Below, piece after piece: positions 36,347 to 63,980 of a stretch of DNA of 64,000 nucleotides. The stretch comes from an uncultured Eubacteriales bacterium (GTDB taxonomy: Bacteria; Bacillota; Clostridia; Oscillospirales; Oscillospiraceae). The notes beneath the pieces are model-generated. The model did no database searches and was not told where the DNA came from. It worked only from the letters and a program-made list of their open reading frames with translations. Each line of letters starts with the position of its first letter. The first letter of the stretch is position 1. The translations under genes were made by a program, and so were the position numbers. The stretch spans positions 111,049 through 175,048 of the forward strand of contig URDG01000001.1 in assembly GCA_900546515.1 (NCBI GenBank). Direction: 5' to 3'.

Positions 36347-37290
36347 TTACTCGACGACCATCTTACCGTCTGCACCAAACTCATAACTTGCTTCCTTCAT
36401 CAAGCCATTAGTCTTGGTAATCCAATATTTCTGGCCGTGGACAACTTCTCCGCTTGTCTTGACATAGTAGTAGCTGCCTTTGATATTGATCAGGCCTGCA
36501 TAATATCTGCTGCCGTCCTTGTAGTAGTACAGGCTGCCATCTTCTTCAACTATGCCGTCTTTTACCAAATCTCTGAGGATCATCTTGCCATCGTTGTCGA
36601 ACTGATATGTACCCTGCTTTATTGGCACACCATTTATTGTTATACCGTTGGTCTCCGTGATCCAGTAGCTCATACCGCAGACAAGCTTTCCGCTTAAAGT
36701 TCTCGCATAATAATAGCTGCCATCATATTCAAATAATCCACGTCCGGTCTTAACGCCATCAACAAAGTAATACAGTCCGTCAGCGCTGTCAGCCTGCTGA
36801 ATACCTTGTTTATCAGTATCCTTATCATGGACAATTATACCGTCATCTCCGGGGACATACCAGATGTTTGCGGGCAAATTAAGTCCGTTTCTATATTCTT
36901 CAGTGAATCTTAATATCTGACGATTTTCACTGTAAACAACTGCTTTACCCTCATCTTCACTATCGAAGAAGTAGTAGTCCTTAACGCCATCCGTTATCAC
37001 AAGCTGGAGTCCGGCATTGACATTGACTTTGCCGTTTTCCACCCAATAGATAGCGCTGCCGTCATTGATGGGGCCGGTATGATCGCTCTTGAAGGAACCT
37101 GTATTCTCGTCAAACAGATAGCGTCCCGTTGCTGCGGAACCATCCTGTGCGGGTATCTCGCCCGACAGGCCCTTAACAACATAGCTGCTCTCATCGAAAT
37201 AGTACCACGCGCCGTCTATCTGTTTCCAACCGGGGACGGCCTTTATGCCATCAGCCAGATACGTTCTGCCGTTGGCATCATCAAGCCAGC
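36347..37290 (-). repeat. C-terminal cell-wall-binding (choline-binding-type) repeat region of the 2494-aa protein
   Basis: Repeated GW/YYY aromatic motifs: GWKQIDGAWYYFDESS, LYYFVDGVKTG, GSYYYARTLSGKLVCGMSYWITETNG and GSLYYYKDGSRYYAGLINIKGSYYYVKTSGEVVHGQKYWITKTNGL. Confidence 0.75.
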
Positions 37291-40200
37291 CGGTGAAAAC
37301 ATACTGTGCGGTATATTCGGTGCCCTGTGCCGGGGTCTTGTTGGGAAGCTCGGGGCTCCAGCCAGTGAACTTGAATACGCCGGTATAGCTTGCGCCGTCA
37401 AGCTGCTTGGCACTTATGCTGATCTCTGTGGGAATCACGGGAACGTCAATCGCAGCATCGCACTTCGACGTGATGGTTGCACTTGCATCTTCATAATCTG
37501 CGTCCTTGTAATTGAAGGTCAGGGTTATATCATTCGCAGAATAGTGTGCGTACAGCGTCAACGCGGCCTTGGGCATCACATATCCATCAAGGTCGATCGC
37601 TTCGCCGTCGCCAAGCGCACCCGTGCGCCATTCAAGCGTGTAGCCGGGTTTGGATTCCTGCGCAGATATATATGACTTGAGCAGACTGCCCCAAGGCACA
37701 TTGATGCCATCGCTTATATACGCGCTGCCATCGTCAGTCAGCAGTGTCAGTTTATATTCTGCATTTTTCCACTGAGCAACAACTGAAAGATCATGCGCAG
37801 GCATTGTAACATTTGCGGATGCGGCCAGCGTAGGATACTTAGTATCACTGCTGTCCACCCAGCCATCGAAAACATAGTCAGCTCTCGCGGGATCTTCAAC
37901 ATCTATGACGCTGCCGAATGTTACATTGCTCTCCCTGCTCTTAGAACCGTCACCATAGTCGAGCACGAGCCTGAAAGTCTTCGGGGTCTCGGTGTAATAT
38001 GCCGTGTAGACCGCTTCACCGGAAACTGTGGCGCCATCTGCAAGGATATTGCCACTTGCATCCTTCCATCCGGCGAATGTGTAGCTGTAGCCGTCACCGT
38101 CGGGTCTCGTCGGAGTAACACCGGTGTATTTGAGCGTAGAGCCATACTCTGCATTTTCCCGCTCGATCACAGTTCCATCATAGTTATTCCATGTAATCAG
38201 GCATGTATCCGGGATCCATTTTGCCGTGAGCATAAGATCTTCAGCAGGCATGGTATTGCTCTCAAACCTGGTCTCTTCGATATACCAGCCGCCGAAGGTA
38301 TAACCGGTCCTGCTTGGACTCGGAAGAGTGATCGTCGAATTATAGTCTGCTGTAATACTTTCAGTCATCGGGCCTCCGTTGCCGTTAAAGCTTATCGTAT
38401 ACTTATTGACCGTCCAGAAACCGTACAACTCAATATTTCCGGCAGGCATGGTATCCGGCAGAGTATAAGACTTTGTATATTCTGCATCGCTATACCAACC
38501 CTTGAAAGTATAGCCGGTCTTATCGGCACGTATATTTACATCAGCTATATTAGCGCCATACGTGACAGAATACGTCTCAAGGTCATTTATCCTGCCGTGA
38601 ACCGTTATCGTGTAGGTATTGATCACAAATTTGGCATTCAGCTCAATATTTCCAGCAGGCATGAGTCCGCCAGCCGGAATGCCGTCCCATCCGGTGAATG
38701 TATAGCCTTCAAGCACAGGTGTATATTCTTCTATGCTGCTGTTGATCTCAGCACCGCAGTGTAATTCAACAGTGTGCCAAACAGCCCCATTAACCTTCAG
38801 CGTTACCGCAAAGTTTATAGCGCTGAACTTTGCGTTTATGGTGATATCCTCAGCGGGCATGTGTATAAGATCTGTATCCCAGCCGGTAAAGTTGTACCCC
38901 TCCTTGGAAGGAGCTGCGGGCGCAGGTATTGGCTGGCCATATGTCACATCTTTTTCTTCATACACTTTACCGTCAACATAGAACGTAGCCTTATAGGTGT
39001 TCGGCGTCATCTTTGCATAAAGGACAATGTCGCTTGCCGGCATGGTATCGGGATAGGTATATTTGTCTCCGGTGCAGCCGCTATTATCATACCAGCCGCC
39101 GAACGTATGTCCGGTAATTTCAGGAGTACCCGTGTACTTATCGTCATCGCTTATATTATCACCGAAGTGCTTGACACCAGACTCATGTATCTTTTCGCCG
39201 TTTACCATATATATGATACGGTACTCTTTTTGCGTCCAGCTGGCATAAAGTGTGAGGTCTTTGCTTGCACTAAACTTAACGCCGGGAAGATATACAAGTT
39301 TACCGTCTCCATCGACCCAGCCGTTGAAGGTCCAGCCTTCCTTTGTGAGTGTCGGCGCAGTAACTGTATCACCGTGAGAATATGTGCCGCCCTCAACCTC
39401 CGTGTCATTATCCATAAACTTCAGGCTGTATTGATTAGATCTCCACTTTGCGGCCAGAGTGAGGTTTTCGGCAGGCATTGTTTCGGGGATTTCAGCATAG
39501 GTCGTTTCGTTTTCGCCTGTTATCATCCAGCCGTCGAAGGTGTATCCCTCTCTCACGCCGCAGTCGAACTGACTGCTGTCTATCGTGTCGCCAAACTTAA
39601 GACCGGTTATTACAGTGGACACACCTTCCTCGCGTACAACAGTTATCGTGAAGTAACGTGTTGTCTCCTCATACTGTGCTGTATATGTACGCTCGCTTGC
39701 ATCTTCTATTTTCTCCGGTACAGGATTCCAGCCGGTGAATGTATAAACCGTGGTTGCTGTCGGGGCCTTTGACGGAGTACCCGTATATTGGGGTATTGTG
39801 CCGTAGTCAACGTAGGCTACTACGTTCTTCTCCGGGTCATTTTCATCAATTACCCATGTAACCTTGTGCTGCGTGGTGCTCTCATTGAACACTGCCGTAT
39901 AGGTCGTATCAGCATCAGCAGCAGTGGGTTCAGGCTGCCAGTGATCAAAGGTATACGTACGTTTCACGGTTACTTCCACAAGACTATCGGTATTGGAATA
40001 CGCAGGAATAGAGCCCTTTGTAACATAAACAACTTCTGATGTAGTTTCCTTACTGGAAGGCCAAGTTATTTCCCAAGTGATCTTTACGCCTGTACGCGGG
40101 ATCTCCTCGCCCTTCTTAAGAAGAGTGTTGCACACTGAGCAGTAAGTATCGCCGGTATAACCGTTCTCAGAAAGGGTCGCTTCTTTCGCGTTACGAATTT

Positions 40201-43200
40201 CCTCCGTGTGACCCTTTGCGGGAACCACGGTCTGAGCGACGAGAACCTCGTTGCAGACGGAGCAGTGCTTGCCCTCGGTCTTGCCCGTCTCCGTGCACGT
40301 TGCTTCTACCGCCGCGTCTATGACTTCCGTGTGACCCGTTGCGGGAATCTCAGTCTGAGCGACGAGAACTTTGTTGCAGACAGAGCAGTGCTTGCCCTCA
40401 GTCTTGCCCGGCTTCGTGCACGTTGCTTCTACCGCCGCGTCTGTCACTGTAACATGACCCTTTTTGGGGATAACGGTCAAGCCGGAAAGAGTGGCACCGC
40501 AGACTGAGCATTTTGTTCCGGCTTCATAACCGGCCTCAGTGCAAGTAGCAGGCTTCCCAGGCACCTCAACTGAAGTATGGCCTGTTGCCGAGATTGCTTC
40601 AGTTTTTGTTTCATTGCACACTGTGCATGTGTAGGTCTTTACGCCGTCCTCGGTGCAGGTCGCAGCCGTTGTAACCTTACCTTCGTCCCAAGAGTGACCC
40701 TTTGCGGGAATCTCAGTCTGAACAACGATAACCTCATTGCAGACGGAGCAGTGCTTGCCCTCGGTCTTGCCCGGAGTTGTGCATGTTGCTTCTACTGCCG
40801 GGTCTATCACTTCCGTATGGCCCGTTGCGAGGATGCCCTCGCCATCAGCAATTTTTTCGCCGCAAGTCTTGCAGTAAGTATCACCAGTGTAGCCTTTTTC
40901 GGTGCAGGTTGCAGCCTTGGCACCACGGACTTCGGTCTCACCATGTGCACATTTCCACTGTGCATAGAGGGTAATATTTTCCGTTAAAGCAACTTTAGTT
41001 CCAGCAGCATAAGCTGTACCGGGATTATCAGTGGTCGGTGCTGCCGCAGTGTTCCATCCGGTAAATGTATAGCCCTCGCGTGTGAAGGTATTGGCGCTGA
41101 TGGTTACTTCAGTTCCCTTTTTAACCGTCTGCGCATCCATAGTGCCGGTGCCGCCGTTTGCGCCATAGGTAACAGTTACAGCCTCAGCCCAATTTGCATA
41201 AAGGGTAATATGAATTCCTTTTTCCTCGAGCTGGCCAGCGGTAAGTGTGAAGCGGTCTTTATCAAGGAAATCATCTGTACCGCTGTCTACAGAAAATGCC
41301 CAGCCGGTAAACATGTACCCATCTTTTGTGAATGTGCATGCAGGCAGAGAATTATCGGCTGCCGGAACTACACCGTTTACGATATCATAAACCACAGGCT
41401 CCATAGCATCGGCGCCGCCGTTTGCGTCAAACGAGACCTCGACCGCCTGTTTCCACAGCGCATAAAGATCTATAGAGCTGTTATACTTCTCGCCCTCATT
41501 CGCTTTGAAGATATCCTCTGTTATCTCCGCGCCGTCGGCAAGATCCGCCTTTTCAGCGGTATCCGACTTGCCCCAGCCAACAAAAAGCTGATATTCTCCA
41601 TCTCTATTAAACGGGGATACGCCATTTGTAGTTGTTTCTTTCTGAATAGTCGCGATAGTATCGAGTTTTGCACCCTTAAAGTCTGTTATCTCCTGCTTAT
41701 AAACATTATCAACAGGTGCTCCGCCTTTTTCATAGTTTGCATGGAAAATCACGCTCCATGCTTCTCCGCCCCAGAAGCCATTGACATAGTTAATGGTATC
41801 GCCGGCGCTTGCGGTCGCGGTTTCGGTGTAGGTTCCGTTTGCATTATGCAGCTTGGCAGCGGTGATGGGGATGGTCACCGCACTATTGCCATTTGCATTA
41901 TACTGATAGGTTGCGGTCGCCGTGCCAGGTGTGCCCTGCTGAATGTACTTGCCGGTGCCATTGCTGGAGCAGATATCTGCACTGCCATTGGTAGTGTAGA
42001 TGGCGCCAATAGCCGTTACGCTGCCGTTCACATCCATCTTCGCATCAACCAAGTCTTTATCGGAGCGGTTGTATGCCTTACCCGGCGCATAGGCCACAGA
42101 CTTAAACTTGCAAGGACCCCAGACGAAGTTGTCGGAGTTCCACTCATCGCTGTCATAGAAATAGATATTCTTCCCGCTTGCAACCGTCAGACCAGCGCCC
42201 TCCGCAATATTGACCTCAACGCCCGCCAGCAGTGCCGCGTCCTGATTGATGGTCACATTTCCGGACTGGATATTGATGGTGATGTTGTTGGTGATAGGCA
42301 GTACGTAGCTTGCAGAGTTGACATTCATGCTCGCAAGCTTTAGCGACAACGTGTTCAATGCCGCCTCGCCGTTTACTGTGAATACAAGGCGATCCGTCTT
42401 TTCATCGTAATCCTTAGTAAAGCTACCGGATTCCACTTTGAACATACCGGTGTCGCCAATGAAATTAATAGCAGTAGTATATGTGCTCTTCATTGCATAA
42501 ACGCCGCTATAAACCTGTTCGTTAGCGCCGGCATTCAACGTCAAGGGAACTTCGATGTTTTGTACGAAGTACTGCGAAAATGGGAACACCCCATGGCCCA
42601 TGCCGGAAGATGCGCCGCCGCCGCGGAAGTCTGCAATCTGATAGAATTCGTACACCGTAGCGCCGGATTCCGCCAGAACAGAGCCGCTGCCGGAGATAAA
42701 GCCCCATGCATAGAGATTACCGCCGTTCTTGACCGTGATGGAACTATTGTCCGCCATTTTGATGTATCCATAATCACCAACGGGACGTCCCTGCTCACTA
42801 CCGCCAGCAGCAAAATATCTGCCGCCCAGGCTGATGGCGCCATTGACGGTAATGGACGTGCCTTCGCTCATCGTCAGCGTCCGGAAAGGATTAGACGCGG
42901 GAGTCGTCCGAATCGCCGCAGGAGCATCCGTATACAGTGTCCCTGCCGCGTCGAAGGGGATCAACAGCGTGATTCCCGCCGGGATGGTATAAGTACCGCT
43001 GATTGAGCCATCAGTAGCCAAGGTAATCTTGGACTGGCCGTTTGCCTGTGCATAGGAAACCGCATCACCCAAATCGTCAAACCGCTGGCCGCCGGTTTCA
43101 AACAGGGCCGCCGTTTTACTTGCGAACCGCGCTGTGATGGTGCAGTCGCTTTCAATGTTCAGCGCAGCCTTTGCAGACGTGCTGATATATTTCCCGTTAG

Positions 43201-43831: not shown

Positions 43832-44517
43832 TTTCTTCTTTCCTTCCCAAGTTTATTTTTCTTTGCCGTAAATTCAAAATATATGCTCAATCCTAACGCG
43901 AGGGAAATTAGCGACCATATATGTGCCGGATGAATTCCCGAATAACTCGACTGCCTGAACCATTCGATAATAAAGCGGAATACACCGTATGCAATCATGT
44001 AGAGCGGGTATGCCGTACCCGGCGCTTTTGTCTTTAAAATTCTGCCGCCAAGCCATATAAGGAGCACGACGTAAAATACGATCTCAAGCTCACGCGTCGG
44101 CCAATAAAGCGTTGTGCCTTTAATTAGCAGGCCAGAACAGCAGCCGGAAATAAGGCAATTTATACGCGCACACATGAGTGTGAAAATTATACAGACTGTA
44201 AAAACATCAAAAACATCAGCCATTTTTCTCTTTGTCAGTTTCGCAAAGAGAAAATAGTAAAGCGGCATAAAAAACACACCGCCAAAGAGGCTCATATTTC
44301 CTGCGTTTGACATATCAAACCCAGTCTCAGCAACAGCAAACACTTTAACGCAAAGCACACCGCACGCAGTATGCAGAACGCTTGCCAATAGTGCAGTTAT
44401 GCGGTCGATTTTCAAGCGGTTGTTAAGCTTATACAGCCAGATATAGCCAGCAACGGTTGCAGTAGCAAGGAGCAGGACAAGCGTATGCTCACCTAGCCAC
44501 GAAAGCAGCGCAGTCAA
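43828..44517 (-). CDS. Prolipoprotein diacylglyceryl transferase (Lgt) family paralog
   Basis: 229-aa polytopic membrane protein. ARINCLISGCCSG, WPTRELE and YGVFRFIIEWFR correspond to the Lgt motifs GRIGxF..., PTQLYE and YxxxRFxxExxR. TTG start after GAGGAAG. The stop overlaps the ATG of the 2494-aa gene (ATGA). Confidence 0.7.
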   Translation of the reverse strand: MTALLSWLGEHTLVLLLATATVAGYIWLYKLNNRLKIDRITALLASVLHTACGVLCVKVFAVAETGFDMSNAGNMSLFGGVFFMPLYYFLFAKLTKRKMADVFDVFTVCIIFTLMCARINCLISGCCSGLLIKGTTLYWPTRELEIVFYVVLLIWLGGRILKTKAPGTAYPLYMIAYGVFRFIIEWFRQSSYSGIHPAHIWSLISLALGLSIYFEFTAKKNKLGKERRK

Positions 44518-44626
44518 AGGCAGTCACTTCCTCACGTATGGTCACTAAAGTTTTCTCCGCGGCGACAACTGCCCATTGAAGGAGAGAGGGCAGCTGCTGC
44601 CGGGAGAATTTAAAAGGAGTGTAGAA

Positions 44627-50023: not shown

Positions 50024-50050
50024 GTTTTCTCCTTCCATTTAAGTCATTAA

Positions 50051-51699: not shown

Positions 51700-51777
51700 T
51701 TACTGTTCTCCATCATCAGTCTATAAATATATATACTATTTTTTGGTGCAGTAAAAACTCACTACATGCTGCGTAGA

Positions 51778-54491: not shown

Positions 54492-54497
54492 GTTTCT

Positions 54498-55676: not shown

Positions 55677-55681
55677 AAAAA

Positions 55682-56857: not shown

Positions 56858-58071
56858 TGCAAACCCCTATAAATCTGTTCATACTGCAACAGCATACTCT
56901 TTTGCGAGTAAACCTTATGAGCCTTTTCAGAAATCAATTCGGGCGATACTCTTCTTTTCAGTTTAATTAGCTCACGCGCCGCTCGCTCAAGCTCATCCAC
57001 GTCCCCGTATGAGACAAAACTGCTGAACTCTTTCATAGATATCTGTTCCGGTCCGCCCGCACGAAAGCCTGCAACAGGCGTCCCACAGCAAAGGCTTTCG
57101 GCGCAAATCATAGAGAATGTCTCACGTTTACTTGATATAACCGTAATATCTGCCGCAGAATAAAGTTCGGCCAGCAACCGCTGGTCCTGCACTTCGCCAA
57201 GGAAAAAAACATTATCCGGCGCGGACCGGCTTAATTTATATTTTCCGGCAACAATGAAAATAAATTCCGTCATTCTTTCTGCAAGCTTGAGTACGTATTC
57301 ACCACCCTTTATATCATCGGGTGTATCCCTGAACATCGCTGTCGCATGAAACACTATACCATCTTTTTCAGCGCTTGCCAGATACTCGTAAACACGCTTT
57401 TTATTGTTTCTATAATAAAAAACCGAGGTATCTACTGCGTTCAGGATGACCGAATGCATCTTATCTTTTAAAATCGGAGATTGTTTGGCTCTGCACATGA
57501 GCCACGGTGATACAGAAACAACTCGCAGTCTGTCATTAAAGCCGGAAAATGCCCGCTTCATTCTTATAAAGCTGTCATGTGTACGGTCAAAAAAATAGCT
57601 CTTATCGGCATAATACGGGTCTGGGCACATACTGCAGCCGTTCAGCCATCTATTGCACTCAAGCGAATGTCCGCAATTTGCAGTATACATAAACTCAGCA
57701 TGCAAAGTCAAAACAACCGCTATACGGTTGTCATTCAACCATTTAATAAGCCGATATATATTTACAAAGTTTCCGTTTATACACTGAATATGAACAACGT
57801 CAGGCTTTTCTTTTTTTATAATTGAAATGATTTTGATTGTTGATATAAAACAGCCTCCATACGGAATACCACATAATCTTGATATGAAGCTATTAAACTT
57901 TCCGTATAGGTTGCCGCAGACTCTGTACAGGTTTTTATCTTCCTCACTTGCCCCCCGTCCATATATCACAACGGATGAGTATCCATCGCTCATTAATCCA
58001 TGATGTATTGCCTTTGTCAGCTTTCCAGTGCTGCCTACGCCATAGACGTTATTAATTTGAAGAATTTTCAT
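56839..58071 (-). CDS. Glycosyltransferase family 4
   Basis: MKILQINNVYGVGSTGK... at the N-terminus; C-terminal SKRETFSMICAESLCCGTPV E-x7-E region. Confidence 0.8.
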   Translation of the reverse strand: MKILQINNVYGVGSTGKLTKAIHHGLMSDGYSSVVIYGRGASEEDKNLYRVCGNLYGKFNSFISRLCGIPYGGCFISTIKIISIIKKEKPDVVHIQCINGNFVNIYRLIKWLNDNRIAVVLTLHAEFMYTANCGHSLECNRWLNGCSMCPDPYYADKSYFFDRTHDSFIRMKRAFSGFNDRLRVVSVSPWLMCRAKQSPILKDKMHSVILNAVDTSVFYYRNNKKRVYEYLASAEKDGIVFHATAMFRDTPDDIKGGEYVLKLAERMTEFIFIVAGKYKLSRSAPDNVFFLGEVQDQRLLAELYSAADITVISSKRETFSMICAESLCCGTPVAGFRAGGPEQISMKEFSSFVSYGDVDELERAARELIKLKRRVSPELISEKAHKVYSQKSMLLQYEQIYRGLQCEQRK

Positions 58072-58072
58072 C

Positions 58073-59383
58073 TTATATATGCTTATCCGTCGTCACAGCC
58101 TTGCGAAAAATTTCTCTTAGCAGCTTATCATTCTTTTCCTTATTGTGACATTCATTTGCAAGCTTCTGTGCATTTTCAACCAACTGTTCTCGAATCATGG
58201 GATCATGTTCCAGCTTTAGAATAGCACTCGGGAAATCTTCCGCACTTTCCAATATAAACGCAGAACTATTTCTCTTCAAATATTCAATTGATGATATGTC
58301 CTTTGGACCATAGGCAAGTAAGCACGCCCCACTGCAAAGGCTCTCGCCAATCTTAGTGGACAGAGAATATCTGGTACGTGCTTTTGCTGTTTCATCAAAA
58401 GCTTCCACGTGCAAAAGATATTTAGCACGTCCTATGATCTCCGGCACCTTTGCCCCAGATATTCCGCCATGAAATCTGATTCCATTCTCCTCGGTAAGCT
58501 GAGCAAGAGTGCTCTCTTTTTTGTCATTTGAATATACATCGATATATTCGAATCCGCTGATACTCGCAGCATTAAGAGCGCGCCCAAGCTCCACCAGCGG
58601 CTTAACGCGATTAACGCCAAGTCCTCCTGCATACACAATTCCGCTTCTTTCATGTGATGGCAAAGAATAAGGATTTTTTTTTGCTGCAATTCTGATTGTG
58701 TGAATCGGTTGAGTAAATATCTTTCTGTAATCCTCAGCCATCTTATCGCTTATAACGACAATCTCCTTAGTGTTGCTGCTGACTGCGCTTACACACTTCA
58801 TCAGTTTTTTATAGTATATCGCCTCAAACGGGTTCTTTTTACGCCAACGGCCAAGATAGTAATCGTCACAGCAATATAGCACAATTGGAATATTAAAGCT
58901 GTCAGAAATATGTTTAGCTATCTTATATGAAAACGTATAGTCTCCTGATGCAAAAAAAATAACGTCGGGATTTTGCTCTTTTATCCAGCTCCTAAGTTGT
59001 GCGCTGTCCCATTTACCCACTGCCCACAACAATTCTCTCATCAGATAAATAAATGGTGTGCGTTTTCTGGCAAGTTGATATACTTTTGCCAAGAAACCAC
59101 TGTCTACTCTCGACCGTGGAGCATCGGTCTTTATATCATCACTTGTAAATATGCGATAACTCGTTTTTCCCGTGTATATAGAACGCAAAACATCAACGTC
59201 GGTAACACGAAAATAATTTTCGCACATACTTACCGTGGGGATTTCAGTGTGAAAATACAGCTGAGACAAATTTCCGGGTGATATGAGGGAGAGCATGCTT
59301 GCAAGAGTTTTCCCCATAGCGTTCTCCCTTCCGAACACATTATGACTTATAACAAGAACTTTTATGTCAGTTTTAGCCTCCAT
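58073..59383 (-). CDS. Glycosyltransferase, GT-B fold
   Basis: N-terminal VLVISHNVF... and C-terminal LSTKIGESLCSGACLL region, plus position in the locus. Confidence 0.7.
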   Translation of the reverse strand: MEAKTDIKVLVISHNVFGRENAMGKTLASMLSLISPGNLSQLYFHTEIPTVSMCENYFRVTDVDVLRSIYTGKTSYRIFTSDDIKTDAPRSRVDSGFLAKVYQLARKRTPFIYLMRELLWAVGKWDSAQLRSWIKEQNPDVIFFASGDYTFSYKIAKHISDSFNIPIVLYCCDDYYLGRWRKKNPFEAIYYKKLMKCVSAVSSNTKEIVVISDKMAEDYRKIFTQPIHTIRIAAKKNPYSLPSHERSGIVYAGGLGVNRVKPLVELGRALNAASISGFEYIDVYSNDKKESTLAQLTEENGIRFHGGISGAKVPEIIGRAKYLLHVEAFDETAKARTRYSLSTKIGESLCSGACLLAYGPKDISSIEYLKRNSSAFILESAEDFPSAILKLEHDPMIREQLVENAQKLANECHNKEKNDKLLREIFRKAVTTDKHI

Positions 59384-59389
59384 ATTTGC

Positions 59390-60406
59390 TCAATGTATCC
59401 CCTCATAGATCGATTCAAAAAGATGCTTGTTATTTACCTCATAATCCGGCTGCGCATATGCATTTCCATCACTTGAGCTGGTATACGCTCCATCGAGCGG
59501 GATCCTGTCAGATATGGTTTTATAGTTCAATAATTCGTCTGATTTATCCAAAAGCGCAAAAAGCTCGCTCGCACTCAGGTCGGTATCAACTTCCTTAAAA
59601 AATGCATTCGCAAAATCGATCAATTCCGAATGGCTCATCTTTTTCAGCTTATCCATTATCTGTCCGACGACATACCTTGCGCGTATGGTGCGTCCGACAT
59701 CATCACGCGTACTTGACGGTCTTATACGCAGATATGCCGCTGTCTGGACACCGTTCATCATATGAACCCCTGTGTCTTCGACATCTATAATATTAGAGCC
59801 GGCCTCCGCCCCAACGAGCTTATTTATATTGTTTATCTTAGGTATCATCGCCCATATCTCATCGCGGGACAGTTCTGCCTCAATACCTCCAAGCGAGTCT
59901 ATAATATCTACTATATCCAAATAATTAACAAGGACATAACTTGTTACCGGTATTTCAAAGTTTAGCTCAAACACCTCTCGGAGAAGAGGGACTCCACCTT
60001 TGTGATATGTAGTTGTAAGCTTTGTATCGTAAGCATTCGGAACCCTGACTCTTGTATCGCGCAGGAAAGAAGTAAGTATAATTTCCTCCGTCTTGTTGTT
60101 TACAGTCAGGAGCATAACTCCGTCGGCGTTGCCAAGATCGTTCATCCCGGCCAGATAATCATTATCCACGCCTATCAGTAAAATATTGATTACTTCATCA
60201 AGTGTTTCAGCGCTTCCGGTCTTTTCTCTGACGATTTCCCGCACTTGCCGGCTCACGTTTGAAGTCGGCTCTGCATGCTGAGCCGTCCCCGCCTCTTCAG
60301 GGATATCCTCGGCAAGTTTTTTCTCCGCAGTCAGAATGAAAAATACAACAGCCGCTATCAAAATTATGCAGACCGCGATCAGTATGGATTTAGTAGATTT
60401 CTTCAT
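59390..60406 (-). CDS. cpsA: LytR-CpsA-Psr (LCP) family polymer-to-wall ligase
   Basis: N-terminal TM anchor, then INILLIGVDN...ADGVMLLTVN...SFLRDTRV, the LCP core. Confidence 0.88.
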   Translation of the reverse strand: MKKSTKSILIAVCIILIAAVVFFILTAEKKLAEDIPEEAGTAQHAEPTSNVSRQVREIVREKTGSAETLDEVINILLIGVDNDYLAGMNDLGNADGVMLLTVNNKTEEIILTSFLRDTRVRVPNAYDTKLTTTYHKGGVPLLREVFELNFEIPVTSYVLVNYLDIVDIIDSLGGIEAELSRDEIWAMIPKINNINKLVGAEAGSNIIDVEDTGVHMMNGVQTAAYLRIRPSSTRDDVGRTIRARYVVGQIMDKLKKMSHSELIDFANAFFKEVDTDLSASELFALLDKSDELLNYKTISDRIPLDGAYTSSSDGNAYAQPDYEVNNKHLFESIYEGIH

Positions 60407-61113
60407 AGTCTGTCACCTACAAAGGAGTAAACCCTTTTATTAAATCTGGCAAAATCAGCACTTCTGCCTGCGCGAAATATGGATTCTGCCGCCGCGCCGA
60501 GATTAGGCGCTCTTGACGTTGTATTATGGCAGTCGGAACCAATAAAGTGTATTTTACCCTTATTCATAAGCTCAATTGAATAATCAGCAGTATCATTATG
60601 AATAAAGAAGCTGGCGTTTACCTGCACGAGGAGCCTGCGATCTTTTACCCGGTCTACAAGCTTCCTGTCAGAAAGCATGCGCATATATCTATCTATATGC
60701 GCAATAACAGGTATGCAGCCAAAGTTCCGTCCGGTCTCCTCAATTTCGTCGAGCATAGAATCTGACCACTGCATCATCGGCGGCTCTATCAGAATGCATT
60801 TAAGATCGCCCATAAAGAGCTTTTTGACCTCGACAGCGCCGCTTATTCCCGGGAAATAGAGCACCTCTGCTCCAAGTCTGATTTCCGGGTATTTCCCTGT
60901 GGAAGCATCGATCGCCTCATGCAACTGCCGGTACGCTTCATTGCGCCGCTCAATGAACGATGCCGGGTCTTCCTGATCTGCATAGAAATGCGGCGTAGCA
61001 AATATTATATCAACGCCCTGTTTCCAGCTTTCCGACAGCATCTCAAGACTCTGTTCAACGCTCTGCGATCCGTCGTCAATTCCGGGCAAAATGTGAGAAT
61101 GAAAATCAACCAT
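60403..61113 (-). CDS. cpsB: PHP-family tyrosine-protein phosphatase CpsB
   Basis: MVDFHSHILPGIDDGS..., ATPHF, AHIDRY and GSDCHN metal-ligand motifs. Confidence 0.9.
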   Translation of the reverse strand: MVDFHSHILPGIDDGSQSVEQSLEMLSESWKQGVDIIFATPHFYADQEDPASFIERRNEAYRQLHEAIDASTGKYPEIRLGAEVLYFPGISGAVEVKKLFMGDLKCILIEPPMMQWSDSMLDEIEETGRNFGCIPVIAHIDRYMRMLSDRKLVDRVKDRRLLVQVNASFFIHNDTADYSIELMNKGKIHFIGSDCHNTTSRAPNLGAAAESIFRAGRSADFARFNKRVYSFVGDRL

Positions 61114-61118
61114 ATTGA

Positions 61119-61859
61119 TCAGCGATAATAATAGTAGTTATTGTACTGATATTTCTTGCCTGCGCCCTCAAGTGTGCCATTCATTACAAACCCCAGTATT
61201 TTTGCGTTTGCATATCTCAGCTGATCAACACACTCTCTGAAAACATTCTGCGGGCAGCTATTCTCACGCAGAACCACAATCATACCATCCGTATACCTTG
61301 AAACGGCAACAGCGTCGGTCACCGCTCCAACGGGCGGCAGATCAATTATGATATAATCGTAGCTTGTGGCCAAAGCCTTGATAAGCTTTTCCGCTCGAAG
61401 TGAATTCAGCAATTCAGAAGGATTTGGCGGAATATCTCCGCCCGGAATAATGCTGAGACTGACCGTTCCATCCGAACTTGTATACTTCCTCATACCAACA
61501 GAGACTGAATTTATGTCCAGCAGCAGATTACTAAGTCCCGGGCTTTGTACAACACCCGTTTTAATATGCAGTGAAGGCCTGCGCAAATCAGCATCAATAA
61601 GAAGAACTTTTTTATCCAATTCGGCAATAGAATATGCCAGATTAAGCGCGACCGTACTTTTCCCCTCACTGGGCTGCGCGCTTGTTATTCCAATGACGTG
61701 GCAGCTCTTGTCATGCTGAAAAGATATAAGAACGTTTGTGCGAAGGCGCTTGAATGCCTCTTTTGCGGCAAAGCTCAGACTCTCGCACTGTGGAACTGCC
61801 TTGCTGTTTTCCGAAGTCCCATAGATTTTGTTTTCTCTGTCAGTTCTTTTCTCGCTCAT
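61119..61859 (-). CDS. cpsD: Tyrosine-protein kinase (BY-kinase catalytic subunit) CpsD
   Basis: Walker A SAQPSEGKST, Walker A' LLIDADLRRP, Walker B IIIDLPP and a C-terminal Tyr cluster YQYNNYYYYR. Confidence 0.9.
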   Translation of the reverse strand: MSEKRTDRENKIYGTSENSKAVPQCESLSFAAKEAFKRLRTNVLISFQHDKSCHVIGITSAQPSEGKSTVALNLAYSIAELDKKVLLIDADLRRPSLHIKTGVVQSPGLSNLLLDINSVSVGMRKYTSSDGTVSLSIIPGGDIPPNPSELLNSLRAEKLIKALATSYDYIIIDLPPVGAVTDAVAVSRYTDGMIVVLRENSCPQNVFRECVDQLRYANAKILGFVMNGTLEGAGKKYQYNNYYYYR

Positions 61860-62629
61860 TGTTTGCCGCCCCCTTCGCCGTAATACGAGGAATAGTAGTA
61901 CCCTTTCTTGCCGGAAATCCGCATATCAGGTATAAGTGCAAGAACAGGAATATCCGGGTACATATCTTTCAGATCATCCACCGACCTGATATCAACATTT
62001 CTCTTCTCTGATGTAACAAACACAGCAAGAACAACTGCCGAGCACAGTATGCCGCCTATCAATGCTCCGATCAAAGTATTTTTTATGTAGCTGGGTGAGG
62101 ATCTATGTGCCGGGATAATTGCATAATCCACGATACGCACCGAGCTGCCGTCAACTATTTCCGCTATGCGGTCGGGAAGTATCTTTGCAATCGTATTCGC
62201 AACAAGCTCCGCCTCGACCGGATTTTCACTCTCAACGGTAACATCAAATGCCGCAGTATCTGATACTGCCCGTGCGTCTATCATTTTCTCAAGGTCTTCA
62301 TATGTATAACTGAGCCCTGCTTCCGATATGACCTCTTCAAGCGTGGTGCGCGATTCAAGAATGTATATATATGTGCTGACGAGCGTATTTGACGCAGACA
62401 GTTCCGAAGACGTTATTGAGAAGCTTGTAGCGCCGAAAGAAAAGGAACTGTTGTTAACATACATTGAAGTTGTTGCCTTGTACTTGGGACTGATAAAAAA
62501 GAATGTTCCCGCGAAAGATGCTGCCCCGAAAATAGACGCAGCAAGAATTATTATAAGCGCTTTTTGCCAAAGAATGTTTACGACCTGAAACAAATCAAGC
62601 TCTATTTCCTTTTTTTGACTTGCCGCCAT
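61856..62629 (-). CDS. cpsC: Chain-length determinant / BY-kinase transmembrane activator CpsC (Wzz family)
   Basis: Two TM spans flank an extracellular domain. The N-terminal ELDLFQVVNILWQK pattern is present. It overlaps the cpsD start. Confidence 0.85.
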   Translation of the reverse strand: MAASQKKEIELDLFQVVNILWQKALIIILAASIFGAASFAGTFFFISPKYKATTSMYVNNSSFSFGATSFSITSSELSASNTLVSTYIYILESRTTLEEVISEAGLSYTYEDLEKMIDARAVSDTAAFDVTVESENPVEAELVANTIAKILPDRIAEIVDGSSVRIVDYAIIPAHRSSPSYIKNTLIGALIGGILCSAVVLAVFVTSEKRNVDIRSVDDLKDMYPDIPVLALIPDMRISGKKGYYYSSYYGEGGGKQ

Positions 62630-62657
62630 ACATGCCCTCCGAAAATATTAATAAAAC

Positions 62658-63980
62658 TCAGCCGTACAGATTTCCCGTATTCAGCGCATTGAATGTTCTT
62701 GTGAAATAATCCGGATCATCCTTGAGCAGCTGTTTTTTTGTTTCTTCTATGCACAATTCTTTTTTGATCTCATCGAAGTAGCCCAATTTCTCCATGCGGT
62801 CATATACCAGTTTGCCGATCAGCATATATGCCTTACCGCTAAGCTCCGCATCTCCTCTGGGACTTCTGAGGCTCTCCGGGACTATCCCTCGCTGCATATT
62901 GCTCACATCATTATCAGTAGGCGTGATTCCCGCATCACTCAGTCCGTCCGTGCACAGATATTTACGGACATTTATATAATGTTCCCCGAACGCCTGTGAC
63001 ATTGCGGTATCAACAACATCGAGGTTCACAGCGCTGCCGTAATTCCAGAATCCATTACTTGAGCACAGCCCGATGACAATATATCTGTCTTTGTTCGCAG
63101 TCTGCCGCGAAGCAAGCTCTTTTGTCAATTGGACAAGTTCATCTGTCGAACTGTACCCACCATAGGTGCCGATGCATATCACATGTATGTAATCCAGATA
63201 TTCATCTGATGCGGCCGTCTTTATCGGCGTCCCTACAGCTACAGTCTTTTCTTCACCGGCCTCACAGCGTGTGAAGTAGTATCTATTCAAATTGAGGCGC
63301 TTATAGGAATCCGGATCAATTGAAAGGACGCCCTCGATCCCGTCTATAGATACATTATTTACACCGGCTCCGCCATCTGTAAGAGGAGTTACGGCCTTGC
63401 CGTTCTGAGAAGTAAAATTGATCTCCACGCTCTGGGTATCCGCGGGTATGGTGAATTCAGAACTGACAATATAGGGAACCACCCCGCTTCGTCCCAAAAT
63501 CGTATTTACATCCTCTTCCCCGGCTCCCATATTTACAACAGGAATGGAGACTTTGTAATCGTCCCACTTCAGACGTGAATAATCACTTGCATTTTCAATA
63601 GTGCTTCTGAAATCATAAATATCACATATATACGCATTGATGTACTTCTGCAGCACATCCGGGTATGAAACGTTTCCGGACGATCCAGCAGTAAGATTAT
63701 CTCCCCAGCACACAATGCCCGGCATATATTCTGCGATTGTATTCAAATCTGCCTCATATTGCGCCTCTATTGCATCAACTGCCTCACGTCGAGCCTCAGT
63801 CTGTTCCTTCTGCTGCTGCCCGTACACCTCCACCAGCTGCGCATCCTGCGCTTTGGTTTCTCTATGAACGGTACACATTGCCAAGGCAAGAGCGGCTAAA
63901 ATCAAAACAATAACGACGGCCAGAATGATATTGCGTACCAGCGTTTTTTTATAGTTATCCTGCCACATATTTTTCTCCAA
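62658..63980 (-). CDS. Membrane-anchored hypothetical protein with degenerate SGNH/GDSL-like block
   Basis: A single N-terminal TM span and a coiled, charged linker are followed by GIVCWGDNLTAG, which resembles SGNH block I with Asn where the Ser nucleophile sits. It is the first visible gene of the envelope island. Confidence 0.5.
   Translation of the reverse strand: MEKNMWQDNYKKTLVRNIILAVVIVLILAALALAMCTVHRETKAQDAQLVEVYGQQQKEQTEARREAVDAIEAQYEADLNTIAEYMPGIVCWGDNLTAGSSGNVSYPDVLQKYINAYICDIYDFRSTIENASDYSRLKWDDYKVSIPVVNMGAGEEDVNTILGRSGVVPYIVSSEFTIPADTQSVEINFTSQNGKAVTPLTDGGAGVNNVSIDGIEGVLSIDPDSYKRLNLNRYYFTRCEAGEEKTVAVGTPIKTAASDEYLDYIHVICIGTYGGYSSTDELVQLTKELASRQTANKDRYIVIGLCSSNGFWNYGSAVNLDVVDTAMSQAFGEHYINVRKYLCTDGLSDAGITPTDNDVSNMQRGIVPESLRSPRGDAELSGKAYMLIGKLVYDRMEKLGYFDEIKKELCIEETKKQLLKDDPDYFTRTFNALNTGNLYG

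What the first reader, a model, noticed from the sequence alone, without database searches (positions are those of the whole stretch)
36347..63980. About 27.6-kb co-directional envelope island: a polysaccharide locus running directly into two wall-binding megaproteins
All 21 genes from 63980 down to 36347 are on the minus strand. Most junctions are overlaps or gaps under 35 nt. Only two gaps exceed 75 nt: 52546-52687 by the listed ORF (52435-52687 after my trimming of the sugar-transferase start) and 51700-51777. I saw no convincing terminator until 36333. The order is: SGNH-like, CpsC, CpsD, CpsB, LCP, three GTs and Wzy, acetyltransferase, Wzx, priming transferase, GT2, LicD, lipoprotein, the 1623-aa NAGPA protein, the Lgt paralog and the 2494-aa protein. 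Standard Wzx/Wzy capsule loci end with the sugar genes. Here the locus continues into proteins whose only visible anchoring device is a choline-binding-type repeat. My inference is that the locus makes the wall polymer that these proteins dock on, so ligand and adhesin would be encoded as one unit.
Basis: partly seen in the sequence, partly recalled or inferred. Interest (0 to 1): 0.7.

Follow-up and report, generated by a model that had tools for sequence, protein, structure and literature searches.

The report
Polysaccharide locus fused to two giant wall proteins
A cell-surface sugar-polymer gene cluster in an uncultured gut Clostridium is permanently linked, across at least dozens of species, to genes for two giant wall-attached proteins. 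One of them is an enzyme that probably cuts the kind of bond the cluster makes, so polymer, anchor and processing enzyme appear to be inherited as one unit.

Summary
There are 18 minus-strand genes (not 21) and three gaps over 75 nt (not two). Co-directionality means little, because the minus-strand run continues to about 21.4 kb.

Comparative genomics does support the link. In 48 species-level loci with enough flank, 47 pair the NAGPA giant with a Flg_new giant and 46 carry at least three kinds of glycan gene. The giants often sit in the middle of the polysaccharide locus. Four species fuse both giants into one ORF. Five of six LicD homologues lead back to the giants; one locus lacks them.

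Both giants end in the same ~70-aa choline-binding-type repeat. The two sets of repeats co-evolve within genomes. The same repeat is inserted into Wzy_C membrane proteins in two representatives.

The 1623-aa protein is not merely an adhesin. It has an invariant NAGPA DGGGS motif and an N-terminal domain that weakly matches the TelC aspartate-rich site. This architecture has been published as a putative toxin.

Best reading: a conserved unit that synthesises, docks and processes a wall polymer. The ligand of the repeats is untested. I class it as a new variant of a known kind. Interest 0.62.

The parts
62658..63980 (-). First gene of the locus in the window.
   Evidence: No Pfam or NCBIfam hit. 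PHROG tail protein E 7e-43 and tail fibre E 9e-28. About 30% identity to phage minor tail proteins.
59390..62629 (-). CpsC (Wzz) 61856-62629, CpsD BY-kinase 61119-61859, CpsB phosphatase 60403-61113 and LCP ligase 59390-60406.
   Evidence: Pfam: Wzz 59.5 bits, AAA_31/ParA, CpsB_CapC 145 bits, LytR_cpsA_psr 87.6 bits. Tyrosine-rich tails seen in the sequence.
52688..59383 (-). Variable block: GT4 58073-59383, GT4/GT1 56839-58071, Wzy 55682-56857, GT1 54498-55676, hexapeptide acyltransferase 53982-54491, Wzx 52688-53989. G+C is about 0.40.
   Evidence: Pfam. G+C profile. In other species this block lies downstream of the giant genes, or between LicD and the lipoprotein gene.
52546..52687 (-). 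142-nt gap with a promoter-like site (52599-52571), followed by two small hairpins in the leader of the priming-transferase gene.
   Evidence: Consensus scan: 10 of 12 matches plus an extended -10 TG. Sequence. The fold is not significant, z = -1.4.
50051..52545 (-). Conserved glycan core: small polyprenyl-phosphate sugar-phosphate transferase 51778-52545, TuaG-like GT2 50941-51699 and LicD-family phosphotransferase 50051-50944.
   Evidence: Pfam: Bac_transf 216 bits, Glycos_transf_2 139 bits, LicD 140 bits. NCBIfam. Present in 30, 41 and 40 of 48 loci.
49532..50038 (-). p168: lipoprotein (lipobox LTGC) with a conserved C-terminal domain of about 105 aa and unknown fold.
   Evidence: Sequence. 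Orthologues carry a lipobox or a TM anchor. Found in 36 of 48 loci. No Pfam or PDB relative.
44627..49498 (-). 1623-aa secreted two-enzyme protein. It has a signal peptide, a TelC-like all-alpha domain (res 95-405 = 48284-49216), a NAGPA phosphodiester glycosidase domain (res 496-672 = 47483-48013), an Ig-like region, a conserved middle region and four ~70-aa wall-binding repeats (44633-45643).
   Evidence: Pfam NAGPA 137 bits. DGGGS (D635-S639) and D272/D276/D278 are invariant in 20 homologues. The top PDB profile hit is TelC 5ukh_A, E 0.042. Repeat coordinates.
44518..44626 (-). Long hairpin without a U tract between the two giant-protein units, ending just before the ribosome-binding site of the Lgt-like gene.
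   Evidence: -41.9 kcal/mol, z = -4.7. The same position is structured in 40 of 48 loci against 2 of 48 controls. None has a T-rich tail.
43828..44517 (-). Lgt-like 7-TM protein, a divergent paralogue. It overlaps the start of the next gene by 4 nt.
   Evidence: Pfam LGT 63.7 bits. NCBIfam lgt 35 bits against a cut-off of 118.9. Compared with E. coli Lgt, R143, Y235, R239 and E243 are kept while H103, N146 and E151 are replaced. It lies directly upstream of Flg_new in 21 of 23 loci.
36347..43831 (-). 2494-aa secreted protein. It has a strain-variable N-terminal 700-aa domain (41732-43831), Flg_new repeats, seven CxxC units, more Flg_new repeats and ~70-aa wall-binding repeats (36356-36811, with a weaker one at 37103-37264).
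   Evidence: Pfam Flg_new 296 bits and Flg_new_2 109 bits. Choline_bind_3 34.9 bits on the C-terminus. Repeat coordinates. Allele swap relative to L001.
36214..36334 (-). End of the unit: two strong hairpins. The second (36253-36214) has an 18-bp stem and a T run.
   Evidence: Terminator scan. Sequence. Fold -70.7 kcal/mol, z = -11.8.

Best explanation
This is one copy of a widespread, conserved envelope locus of gut Clostridia. It has two parts.

Part 1 is a Wzx/Wzy-type wall or capsular polysaccharide pathway. It comprises a small priming transferase, a TuaG-like GT2, a LicD phosphotransferase, a variable GT/Wzy/Wzx/acetyltransferase block, the CpsBCD regulators and an LCP ligase.

Part 2 is a four-gene protein set welded to it. 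It comprises a membrane-anchored 168-aa protein, a secreted two-enzyme giant (TelC-like domain plus NAGPA phosphodiester glycosidase), an Lgt-like membrane protein and a giant, strain-variable Flg_new protein.

Shown: the linkage, the gene fusions, the shared repeats that co-evolve, and the intact NAGPA motif.

Inferred:
(i) Both giants are exported by Sec and held on the cell's own wall by their ~70-aa choline-binding-type repeats. The likeliest ligand is the polymer made by this locus, or the phospho-group that LicD adds to it.
(ii) The NAGPA giant is a processing enzyme rather than an adhesin. It would cut sugar-1-phosphate and pyrophosphate linkages, which are the bonds made by the priming transferase, LCP and LicD. 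This would trim, release or recycle the polymer or its lipid-linked intermediates.
(iii) The Flg_new giant is the outward-facing binding protein. Its N-terminal domain is exchanged between strains and species.
(iv) p168 is a membrane-proximal partner, or possibly an inhibitor, of the TelC-like domain.
(v) Expression is probably sub-structured, by an internal promoter before the priming transferase and a hairpin between the two giant genes. It need not be one uniform transcript.
For: Linkage:
- 80 species-representative loci were fetched with a profile of the NAGPA giant; 214 of 255 candidate stretches encode a relative.
- Of 48 loci with at least 6 kb upstream and 2.5 kb downstream, 47 have a Flg_new giant. 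In 46 it lies within 1.5 kb.
- The same 48 loci hold LicD in 40, GT2 in 41, p168 in 36, the priming transferase in 30, Wzy in 28, Wzx in 27 and the Lgt-like gene in 23. At least three kinds of glycan gene occur in 46.
- The neighbouring Flg_new protein shares the whole 700-aa N-terminal domain, not just repeats.
- In L002, L006, L007, L009, L015, L016, L017, L030 and L083, glycosyltransferase, Wzy or Wzx genes follow the giants, so the giants lie inside the locus.
- In L026-L028, L038 and L039 the variable block sits between LicD and p168.

Fusions: single stop-free frames of 3073-4078 aa join the Flg_new N-domain to the TelC-like/NAGPA protein in L045, L051, L073 and L074.

Strain level: every contig carrying the identical TGT protein and enough upstream DNA carries the pair.

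The Bac_transf gene is the only priming transferase in the window's locus, so the two halves depend on each other.

Repeats:
- The same unit occurs 1-8 times in NAGPA orthologues and 3-6 times in most Flg_new orthologues, and in no other ORF of the loci or the window.
- Identity between the two proteins' repeats is 0.62 within a genome against 0.50 between genomes (Wilcoxon p = 3e-6).
- Homologous repeats reach Choline_bind_3 at E 1e-20.
- The repeat is inserted in the outer loop of Wzy_C proteins in two representatives.
- An SLH-anchored Flg_new variant shows that the anchor module can be swapped.

Enzyme:
- NAGPA scores 137 bits, and DGGGS is invariant. This motif binds GlcNAc-1-P in human NAGPA (PMC13474241).
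- The N-domain profile's best PDB hit is TelC 5UKH, on its aspartate-rich calcium site.
- D272 and D278 are six residues apart, as in the TelC signature (PMC12419801).

Precedent for wall-polymer genes lying next to the genes of proteins anchored on that polymer: C. difficile AP locus/PSII and the CWB2 proteins (PMC4973711).
Against: - No experiment or computation here identifies the ligand of the repeats. Repeats of this class bind different ligands in different organisms.
- No CDP-choline genes (licA/B/C) are in the window or in the contexts seen, so the group LicD transfers is unknown.
- One locus with a close LicD homologue has no giants within 10 kb (L091).
- An SLH-anchored Flg_new relative with its Lgt-like gene has no polysaccharide genes in the DNA available (L084).
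- L088/L089 have the NAGPA giant but no Flg_new protein in view.
- The TelC relationship is marginal by sequence (E 0.042) and was not recovered by Foldseek, even though the model is confident (pLDDT 89).
- The higher repeat similarity within genomes could reflect gene conversion rather than a shared ligand.
- G+C changes at about 50 kb (0.39-0.43 for the glycan genes, 0.47-0.51 for the giants), so the two parts may have different histories in this genome.
- p168 and the Lgt-like gene are present in only 36 and 23 of 48 loci.
Confidence: 0.55

Rival explanations
1. Conflict system. The TelC-like/NAGPA giant is a secreted antibacterial toxin that attacks lipid II and wall polymers of competitors. 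p168 is its immunity protein. Its position beside capsule genes is incidental, because capsule loci are recombination hotspots.
For: - Burroughs et al. 2025 (PMC12419801) describe this architecture (prok-TelC + NAGPA + cell-wall-binding hairpins + Ig domains in large proteins of spore-forming Bacillota) and read it as a conflict system.
- TelC is a proven lipid II phosphatase toxin, and its cognate immunity protein TipC counters it outside the cytoplasm (PMC5555719; PMC12419801).
- A small membrane-anchored protein is encoded directly upstream.
- Repeat number varies between strains, and alleles are exchanged in the neighbouring giant.
Against: - The gene lies next to or inside polysaccharide loci in 46 of 48 species, often mid-locus.
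- The enzyme core is N-terminal and evenly conserved (about 45-55% identity over 1150 aa with many invariant residues). It is not a variable C-terminal toxin tip.
- Export is by a Sec signal peptide, and the wall-binding repeats would keep the protein on the producer. No T7SS or LXG features were seen.
- p168 is missing in a quarter of the loci and has no detectable similarity to a solved structure.
- No PADLOC hit.
- It is fused to the Flg_new protein in four species.
Confidence: 0.15
2. Enzymatic link only. The giants act on, or are regulated with, the locus polymer, but their repeats dock on a different, general wall component such as a teichoic acid made elsewhere in the genome.
For: - In pneumococcus the choline-binding proteins dock on teichoic acid rather than on capsule, and their genes are not in the capsule locus (own knowledge; P-Cho on teichoic acid as the anchor is stated in the abstract of PMC4649388).
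- The repeat also occurs on other surface proteins, including cohesin, LRR_5 and others.
- In L001 the N-terminal allele of the Flg_new protein changes while both the cps block and the repeats stay the same.
Against: - The repeat family is small (1153 of 1.84 billion representatives) and is dominated by these two protein types.
- It is inserted into Wzy_C proteins in two representatives.
- LicD is in 40 of 48 loci.
Confidence: 0.15
3. Glycoprotein system. The locus builds a glycan on undecaprenyl phosphate that is transferred onto the two giants themselves, as in S-layer protein O-glycosylation. The Wzy_C protein would act as the oligosaccharyltransferase.
For: - Both giants have Pro/Thr-rich linkers.
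- The Wzy_C family includes O-antigen ligases and, by own knowledge, O-oligosaccharyltransferases (Pfam name).
- The Wzx protein gives a weak hit to an 'O-glycosylation flippase' model, 43.5 bits against a cut-off of 720.
Against: - CpsC/CpsD chain-length regulators and an LCP ligase are present, which points to a polymer attached to peptidoglycan.
- Wzy_C is within reach in only 28 of 48 loci.
- This reading does not explain the NAGPA and TelC-like catalytic domains.
Confidence: 0.08
4. No functional link. The genes are merely neighbours on the leading strand.
For: The minus-strand run extends 42 kb through unrelated housekeeping genes. G+C differs between the glycan genes and the giants.
Against: Synteny across 48 species-level loci, gene fusions, the reverse test and constancy at strain level.
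Confidence: 0.03

Closest known systems
Clostridioides difficile anionic-polymer (PSII) locus next to the S-layer/cwp gene cluster (Willing et al. 2015, PMC4973711)
   Same: Genes for a wall glycopolymer lie directly beside genes for proteins that are held non-covalently on that polymer by tandem repeats. Ligand and docked proteins are therefore inherited together.
   Different: The anchor there is CWB2, not a choline-binding-type repeat, and no CWB2 match occurs here. The proteins there form a separate upstream cluster, whereas here they are embedded in the locus and in some species fused. That system has no NAGPA/TelC-like enzyme, no Lgt-like gene and no LicD. Its flippase is an MviN type rather than Wzx/Wzy.
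Large prok-TelC + NAGPA proteins of spore-forming Bacillota (Burroughs, Nicastro and Aravind 2025, PMC12419801)
   Same: The architecture is the same as that of the 1623-aa protein: TelC-like domain, NAGPA domain, Ig-like domain and cell-wall-binding hairpin repeats.
   Different: That paper proposes a toxin acting against rival bacteria. The passages I read do not mention polysaccharide loci. Here the gene is a fixed component of Wzx/Wzy-type loci, with a lipoprotein, an Lgt-like protein and a Flg_new giant as partners.
Pneumococcal phosphocholine system: licABCD, teichoic acid and choline-binding proteins (PspA, PspC, LytA)
   Same: A LicD-family phosphotransferase occurs together with proteins that end in choline-binding-type repeats. 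LicD puts phosphocholine on glycans (PMC10434233), and that phosphocholine anchors the choline-binding proteins (PMC4649388 abstract).
   Different: No licA, licB or licC here. The repeat unit here is a ~70-aa composite that only partly reaches the Pfam thresholds. The genes for the binding proteins are inside the polymer locus rather than scattered. The polymer is made by a Wzy-type pathway.
Streptococcal-type Wzx/Wzy capsule loci (cpsA-D, priming transferase, GTs, wzy, wzx)
   Same: All the gene families are present.
   Different: The order differs: CpsC-D-B-LCP, with the priming transferase after wzx. The locus also carries a LicD gene and four protein genes, which standard capsule loci do not contain.
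Eukaryotic mannose-6-phosphate 'uncovering enzyme' NAGPA
   Same: Same catalytic domain family with an invariant DGGGS motif.
   Different: This is a bacterial, secreted, wall-tethered protein with a different, unknown substrate. Human and bacterial enzymes are less than 20% identical according to PMC13474241.

Membership tests
Wzx/Wzy-dependent capsule/wall polysaccharide locus | Priming polyprenyl-phosphate sugar-phosphate transferase | tested here: met
   Bac_transf 216 bits. EPS_sugtrans 280.6 bits, just under the subfamily cut-off of 295.55.
Wzx/Wzy-dependent capsule/wall polysaccharide locus | Wzx flippase and Wzy polymerase | tested here: met
   Polysacc_synt 103.7 bits. Wzy_C 46.4 bits.
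Wzx/Wzy-dependent capsule/wall polysaccharide locus | CpsB/CpsC/CpsD phosphoregulatory module and LCP ligase | tested here: met
   CpsB_CapC 145 bits, Wzz 59.5 bits, AAA_31 47 bits with a C-terminal YYYY tail, LytR_cpsA_psr 87.6 bits.
Choline-binding (CW_binding_1-type) repeat proteins | Tandem aromatic-rich repeats that match the Pfam choline-binding models above threshold | tested here: inconclusive
   2494-aa protein: Choline_bind_3 34.9 bits (cut-off 27) and Choline_bind_1 22 bits (cut-off 20.5). 1623-aa protein: 21.7 and 18 bits, below threshold. Homologous repeats in other proteins reach E 1e-20.
Choline-binding (CW_binding_1-type) repeat proteins | Binding to phosphocholine on a wall polymer, with a CDP-choline pathway (licA/B/C) present | tested here: not met
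   No licA/B/C in the 64-kb window or in the contexts seen. The rest of the genome could not be searched, and binding cannot be tested with these tools.
NAGPA / phosphodiester glycosidase (PF09992) | Domain match and the DGGGS sugar-phosphate motif with its catalytic Asp | tested here: met
   137 bits against a cut-off of 25. D635-G-G-G-S639 is invariant in 20 homologues. The role of the motif is from PMC13474241.
prok-TelC (Lipocone) lipid II phosphatase domain | Sequence or structure similarity to TelC, including the aspartate-rich calcium site | tested here: inconclusive
   The best PDB profile hit is TelC 5ukh_A, E 0.042 over 75 residues covering the D-rich motif. D272 and D278 are six residues apart and invariant. 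Foldseek with a pLDDT-89 model found no PDB match.
Prolipoprotein diacylglyceryl transferase (Lgt) | Family match plus the key residues of E. coli Lgt | tested here: not met
   Pfam LGT 63.7 bits, but NCBIfam lgt only 35 bits against 118.9. H103 is replaced by F, N146 by C and E151 by C, while R143, Y235, R239 and E243 are kept. The list of key residues is from my own knowledge. This is a divergent paralogue, not a canonical Lgt.
Polymorphic toxin / immunity conflict system | Variable toxin tip, dedicated secretion route and an adjacent, always-present immunity gene | tested here: not met
   The enzyme core is conserved and N-terminal. Export is by a Sec signal peptide. p168 is found in 36 of 48 loci. 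No PADLOC hit.
CWB2/PSII-type or SLH-type wall anchoring | CWB2 or SLH domains in the docked proteins | tested here: not met
   No such Pfam hits in either giant. An SLH-bearing relative of the Flg_new protein exists elsewhere (L084).

The most novel reading that the evidence does not exclude
The locus is a self-contained system to synthesise, decorate, dock and process a wall polymer, and it is widespread in gut Clostridia.
- LicD installs a phospho-group on a Wzy-made wall polymer.
- The ~70-aa repeats of both giants read that group.
- The TelC-like/NAGPA giant is the polymer's dedicated extracellular maturation or release enzyme, a bacterial counterpart of the eukaryotic 'uncovering' step. 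It would cut the sugar-1-phosphate and pyrophosphate bonds that tie the polymer to peptidoglycan or to its lipid carrier.
- p168 is its membrane-proximal inhibitor.

If so, a protein family currently read as an inter-bacterial toxin would be a housekeeping enzyme of the cell's own envelope.
Probability: 0.25. Interest if true: 0.8.

Novelty: new variant of a known kind. Interest (0 to 1): 0.62.

Why it matters
- Gut Oscillospiraceae, Acutalibacteraceae and Lachnospiraceae are abundant, but their envelopes are almost unstudied.
- This locus type was found in at least 214 species-representative genomes. It gives a concrete, testable model for how these bacteria hold giant surface proteins on the wall.
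- It suggests a physiological substrate for bacterial NAGPA-family enzymes, whose function is unknown.
- It offers an alternative to the published 'toxin' reading of TelC-NAGPA proteins.
- The strain-variable Flg_new domain, exchanged between species at a fixed chromosomal site, behaves like a surface antigen or receptor-binding cassette. This is relevant to strain typing, phage-host interactions and host-microbe interactions.
- Three cultured species carry the locus (Flintibacter porci, Brotocaccenecus cirricatena, Fusibacillus kribbianus), so experiments are feasible.

Tried and rejected
- Structure route for the TelC-like domain. The AlphaFold model was confident (pLDDT 89), but Foldseek against the PDB gave nothing below E 0.7. 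TelC similarity rests only on a marginal profile hit.
- Structure route for the Flg_new N-terminal 700 aa. The model was mediocre (pLDDT 66). Foldseek gave only weak beta-sandwich (carbohydrate-binding-module-like) hits with E of 0.007 or more. I assigned no function.
- p168 as a TipC-like immunity protein. The profile search of the PDB matched only the signal-peptide region, so this is not supported.
- Correlating LicD presence with repeat presence. Nearly all NAGPA orthologues have repeats, so there was no variance to test.
- Covariation in the hairpin after the NAGPA gene. The sequences cannot be aligned and RNAalifold predicted no pairs. Only per-sequence z-scores support the element.
- Rfam at gathering thresholds and a tRNA scan of the whole window found nothing. 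The leader before the priming transferase does not fold significantly (z = -1.4).
- PADLOC defence models gave no hits.
- A search for licA/B/C or other CDP-alcohol genes in the window found none.
- Naming the organism. The exact-sequence look-up gave no names. The 99%-identical contig L003 is labelled Oxalobacter, which is not credible for a genome with spoIVA.
- The literature searches found no description of this locus type.

Full report
**1. What is in the window**

Eighteen minus-strand ORFs tile 36347-63980. The junctions are overlaps or gaps of 33 nt or less, with three exceptions: 142 nt (52546-52687), 78 nt (51700-51777) and 109 nt (44518-44626).

Pfam confirms the named functions:

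| Coordinates | Assignment |
|---|---|
| 61856-62629 | CpsC (Wzz) |
| 61119-61859 | CpsD |
| 60403-61113 | CpsB |
| 59390-60406 | LCP |
| 58073-59383, 56839-58071, 54498-55676 | three GT4/GT1 glycosyltransferases |
| 55682-56857 | Wzy_C |
| 53982-54491 | hexapeptide acyltransferase |
| 52688-53989 | Wzx |
| 51778-52545 | Bac_transf priming transferase |
| 50941-51699 | GT2 |
| 50051-50944 | LicD |
| 44627-49498 | 1623-aa protein with a NAGPA domain |
| 43828-44517 | 229-aa LGT-family protein |
| 36347-43831 | 2494-aa Flg_new protein |

- The 168-aa protein (49532-50038) has a lipobox, LTGC.
- The first gene (62658-63980) has no Pfam or NCBIfam match. It does match phage tail and tail-fibre families.
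- Two strong hairpins follow the last gene.

Co-directionality itself says little. The minus-strand run continues through tgt, yajC, xerC, ruvCAB, trmK, spoIVA, an amidase and radA down to 21382, and GC skew is negative over the whole stretch. This is the usual leading-strand bias of a spore-forming Firmicute.

**2. Signals inside the region**

- The 142-nt gap before the priming transferase holds the best minus-strand promoter-like site of the region: TTGACT, 17 nt, TATAGT, preceded by TG (52599-52571).
- The 109-nt gap between the NAGPA gene and the Lgt-like gene folds into a long hairpin (-41.9 kcal/mol, z = -4.7) with no U tract.
- This hairpin is a conserved feature of the locus. The 110 nt after the NAGPA stop codon are strongly structured (z below -2.5) in 40 of 48 species-level loci, against 2 of 48 control windows inside the gene. 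None of the 48 has a T-rich tail.
- The hairpin sequences cannot be aligned, so covariation could not be assessed.
- 'One transcript with no punctuation' is therefore doubtful. An internal promoter plus an attenuating or stabilising hairpin is at least as likely.

**3. Is the link between glycan genes and giant proteins real?**

Yes.

*Forward test.* A profile of the non-repeat part of the NAGPA giant (A1) found relatives in 214 of 255 candidate stretches among species-representative genomes. Eighty loci were fetched. They come from Oscillospiraceae, Acutalibacteraceae, Faecousia and Lachnospiraceae, and include the cultured Flintibacter porci, Brotocaccenecus cirricatena and Fusibacillus kribbianus. 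I searched all ORFs of these loci with the window's proteins. The 48 loci with at least 6 kb upstream and 2.5 kb downstream of the NAGPA gene gave these counts:

| Feature | Loci (of 48) |
|---|---|
| Flg_new giant | 47 (46 within 1.5 kb: 41 downstream, 5 upstream) |
| GT2 | 41 |
| LicD | 40 |
| p168 | 36 |
| Priming transferase | 30 |
| Wzy | 28 |
| Wzx | 27 |
| Lgt-like | 23 (21 directly upstream of the Flg_new gene) |
| At least three kinds of glycan gene | 46 |

- The neighbouring Flg_new protein shares the full 700-aa N-terminal domain (32-89% identity), not merely repeats.
- In many species the variable GT/Wzy/Wzx genes follow the giants (L002, L006, L007, L009, L015, L016, L017, L030, L083). 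In others they sit between LicD and p168 (L026-L028, L038, L039). The giant genes are therefore inside the polysaccharide locus.
- The window's order, with the variable block first, is one of several permutations.

*Fusions.* In four species a single stop-free frame of 3073-4078 aa joins the Flg_new N-domain and its repeats to the TelC-like/NAGPA protein (L045, L051, L073, L074).

Five have the NAGPA giant a few kb downstream, and four of those also have the Lgt-like and Flg_new genes. One of the five comes from a 64% G+C genome labelled Atopobiaceae/Olsenella. The sixth locus (L091) has a full polysaccharide gene set but no giants.

*Strain level.* Every contig that encodes the identical TGT protein and has enough upstream DNA carries the pair beside tgt. 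The Flg_new protein is 2494 to 2946 aa long in these strains, and one strain has the two giant genes in the opposite order.

*Dependence.* The Bac_transf gene is the only priming transferase in the window's locus, so the upstream Wzx/Wzy block needs the downstream core.

**4. The anchor repeats**

- Both giants end in a ~70-aa unit of the form KNGIV.E.G.LYYY..G...YAGLI.I.G.YYYV...GEVV.G..YWI.KTNGL....SY.F..DGKM. It occurs four times in the 1623-aa protein and two to three times in the 2494-aa protein.
- Pfam's choline-binding models pass threshold only on the larger protein. Homologous repeats elsewhere reach Choline_bind_3 at E 1e-20, and both proteins give weak hits to PspC/PspA choline-binding forms.
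- In the fetched loci and in the window, the unit occurs in these two protein types and in no other ORF.
- The two proteins' repeats are more alike within a genome (mean best identity 0.62) than between genomes (0.50; Wilcoxon p = 3e-6). For paralogous modules that predate these species, this indicates concerted evolution. The cause could be a shared ligand or gene conversion.
- The repeat pair is rare overall: 1153 of 1.84 billion representative proteins.
- Among 57 shorter carriers, the partner domains are Flg_new, NAGPA, cohesin and LRR_5. Twice the partner is a Wzy_C membrane protein. In P0417, six repeats are inserted in the large outer loop.
- A close relative of the Flg_new N-domain uses SLH domains instead (L084), so the anchor module can be swapped.
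- Neither giant has an LPXTG, SLH, CWB2 or LysM match.
- All this fits a wall- or polymer-binding role, but it does not identify the ligand.

**5. The 1623-aa protein is an enzyme**

- Its family is conserved along the whole 1150-aa non-repeat part, at about 45-60% identity with many invariant residues.
- The invariant residues include DGGGS (635-639). In human NAGPA this motif holds the GlcNAc-1-phosphate and contains the catalytic Asp (PMC13474241).
- The N-terminal domain (residues 95-405) is predicted with high confidence as all-alpha (pLDDT 89).
- A profile of this domain finds TelC (PDB 5UKH) as its best PDB hit, E 0.042. The match lies exactly on TelC's aspartate-rich calcium site.
- D272 and D278, six residues apart, are invariant. 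This spacing is a TelC signature according to PMC12419801.
- Foldseek did not recover TelC, so membership is unproven.
- Burroughs et al. already described 'prok-TelC + NAGPA + cell-wall-binding hairpins' proteins of spore-forming Bacillota and proposed a role against rival bacteria. The passages I read do not mention polysaccharide loci.
- TelC cleaves undecaprenyl-pyrophosphate-linked precursors. NAGPA enzymes cleave sugar-1-phosphodiesters. These are the bond types made by priming transferases, LCP ligases and LicD. A processing, release or recycling role on the locus product is therefore the most economical reading. This is inference.

**6. The other conserved genes**

- p168 is a small outward-facing protein. 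It is anchored by a lipobox or, in some species, a TM helix, and has a conserved domain of about 105 aa with no known relative.
- The Lgt-like protein overlaps the Flg_new start codon by 4 nt, both here and in L084. It keeps R143, Y235, R239 and E243 of E. coli Lgt but has lost H103, N146 and E151. It scores far below NCBI's lgt cut-off.
- The Flg_new protein has no lipobox. The role of the Lgt-like protein is unexplained.
- The Flg_new N-terminal 700 aa behave as an exchangeable cassette.
  - A strain whose cps genes and NAGPA gene are 98.7% identical, and whose Flg_new C-terminus is 99% identical, has only 66% identity in this domain. There is no nucleotide match over window 41170-42518.
  - More than 100 protein clusters from elsewhere are 83-90% identical to it. 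These include loci whose NAGPA gene is only 51% identical (L010, L007).
- The fold of this domain could not be assigned.

**7. Comparison with what is known**

- The principle that genes for a wall polymer lie beside genes for proteins docked on it is established for C. difficile (AP locus/PSII and the CWB2 proteins; PMC4973711).
- LicD together with choline-binding proteins is the pneumococcal paradigm. That system needs licA/B/C, which are absent from this window.
- Several things are new relative to the literature I could search:
  - the conserved composition of this module;
  - its embedding inside Wzx/Wzy-type loci;
  - the fusions;
  - the hairpin;
  - the allele exchange;
  - the implication that TelC-NAGPA proteins belong to the cell's own envelope biogenesis.
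- I therefore class it as a new variant of a known kind.

**8. Verdict**

- Confidence in the best explanation is 0.55.
- The main rivals are a conflict toxin (0.15), docking on another wall polymer (0.15), glycosylation of the giants (0.08) and coincidence (0.03).
- Interest is 0.62.

Noticed in passing
window 44518-44626 (and the same position in L002-L080): A long hairpin without a U tract sits right after the stop codon of the NAGPA gene and ends just before the ribosome-binding site of the next gene. It is strongly structured in 40 of 48 species, yet the sequences cannot be aligned. It may be an attenuator, a 3'-end stabiliser or a processing site.
   Followed up: partly
window 41170-43831 (N-terminal 700 aa of the 2494-aa protein): Allele exchange. 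A same-species strain (L001) is 98.7% identical over the cps and NAGPA genes but only 66% identical (protein) in this domain. More than 100 protein clusters from other contexts, some with SLH anchors, are 83-90% identical to it.
   Followed up: partly
window 62658-63980: The first gene of the locus has no Pfam or NCBIfam hit. It matches phage tail-protein families (PHROG E 7e-43) and is about 30% identical to minor tail proteins of Arthrobacter, Bacillus and Gordonia phages. It has an N-terminal membrane anchor. It may be a surface-glycan-modifying domain shared with phages.
   Followed up: partly
window 44633-45643; protein clusters; loci L093-L100: Repeat-number polymorphism within the species. 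The NAGPA giant is 1623, about 1718 or 1813 aa long, in steps of about 95 aa. The Flg_new giant ranges from 2494 to 2946 aa. One strain (L100) has the two giant genes in the opposite order, with two unknown genes before tgt.
   Followed up: partly
protein P0417 and one further member of alignment A6: The same ~70-aa repeat is inserted, six copies in P0417, into the large outer loop of a Wzy_C-family membrane protein. This is a domain fusion between the anchor repeat and polysaccharide-assembly machinery.
   Followed up: partly
window 40080-40905 (about residues 975-1250 of the 2494-aa protein): Seven tandem ~45-aa units, each with two CxxC-like pairs (for example GKHCSVCNEVLVAQTEIPA.GH), which looks like a metal-binding repeat. 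The only Pfam trace is a sub-threshold RNase_II_C_S1 match.
   Followed up: no
window 50000-60000 compared with 36000-50000: G+C drops to 0.39-0.43 across the glycan genes, including the conserved priming transferase, GT2 and LicD. The giant-protein genes are at 0.47-0.51. The boundary falls at the LicD/p168 junction.
   Followed up: no
L085: A complete copy of the module (priming transferase, GT2, LicD, GT, small protein, NAGPA giant, Lgt-like, Flg_new giant) lies on a 673-kb contig of 64% G+C. Its LicD protein is labelled Atopobiaceae/Olsenella by NCBI. This may be a copy outside the Firmicutes, but the taxonomy was not verified.
   Followed up: no
L003: The contig that is 99% identical to the window is deposited as an 'uncultured Oxalobacter sp.' MAG. 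This is almost certainly a binning error, because the window encodes SpoIVA and other Firmicute genes.
   Followed up: no
window 20351-21376 (+) and 32771-33706 (-): Two tyrosine-recombinase genes. The second lies between yajC/DUF3792 and ruvC and is conserved at that position in all strains, so it is probably a housekeeping XerC/D rather than a mobile-element integrase.
   Followed up: no
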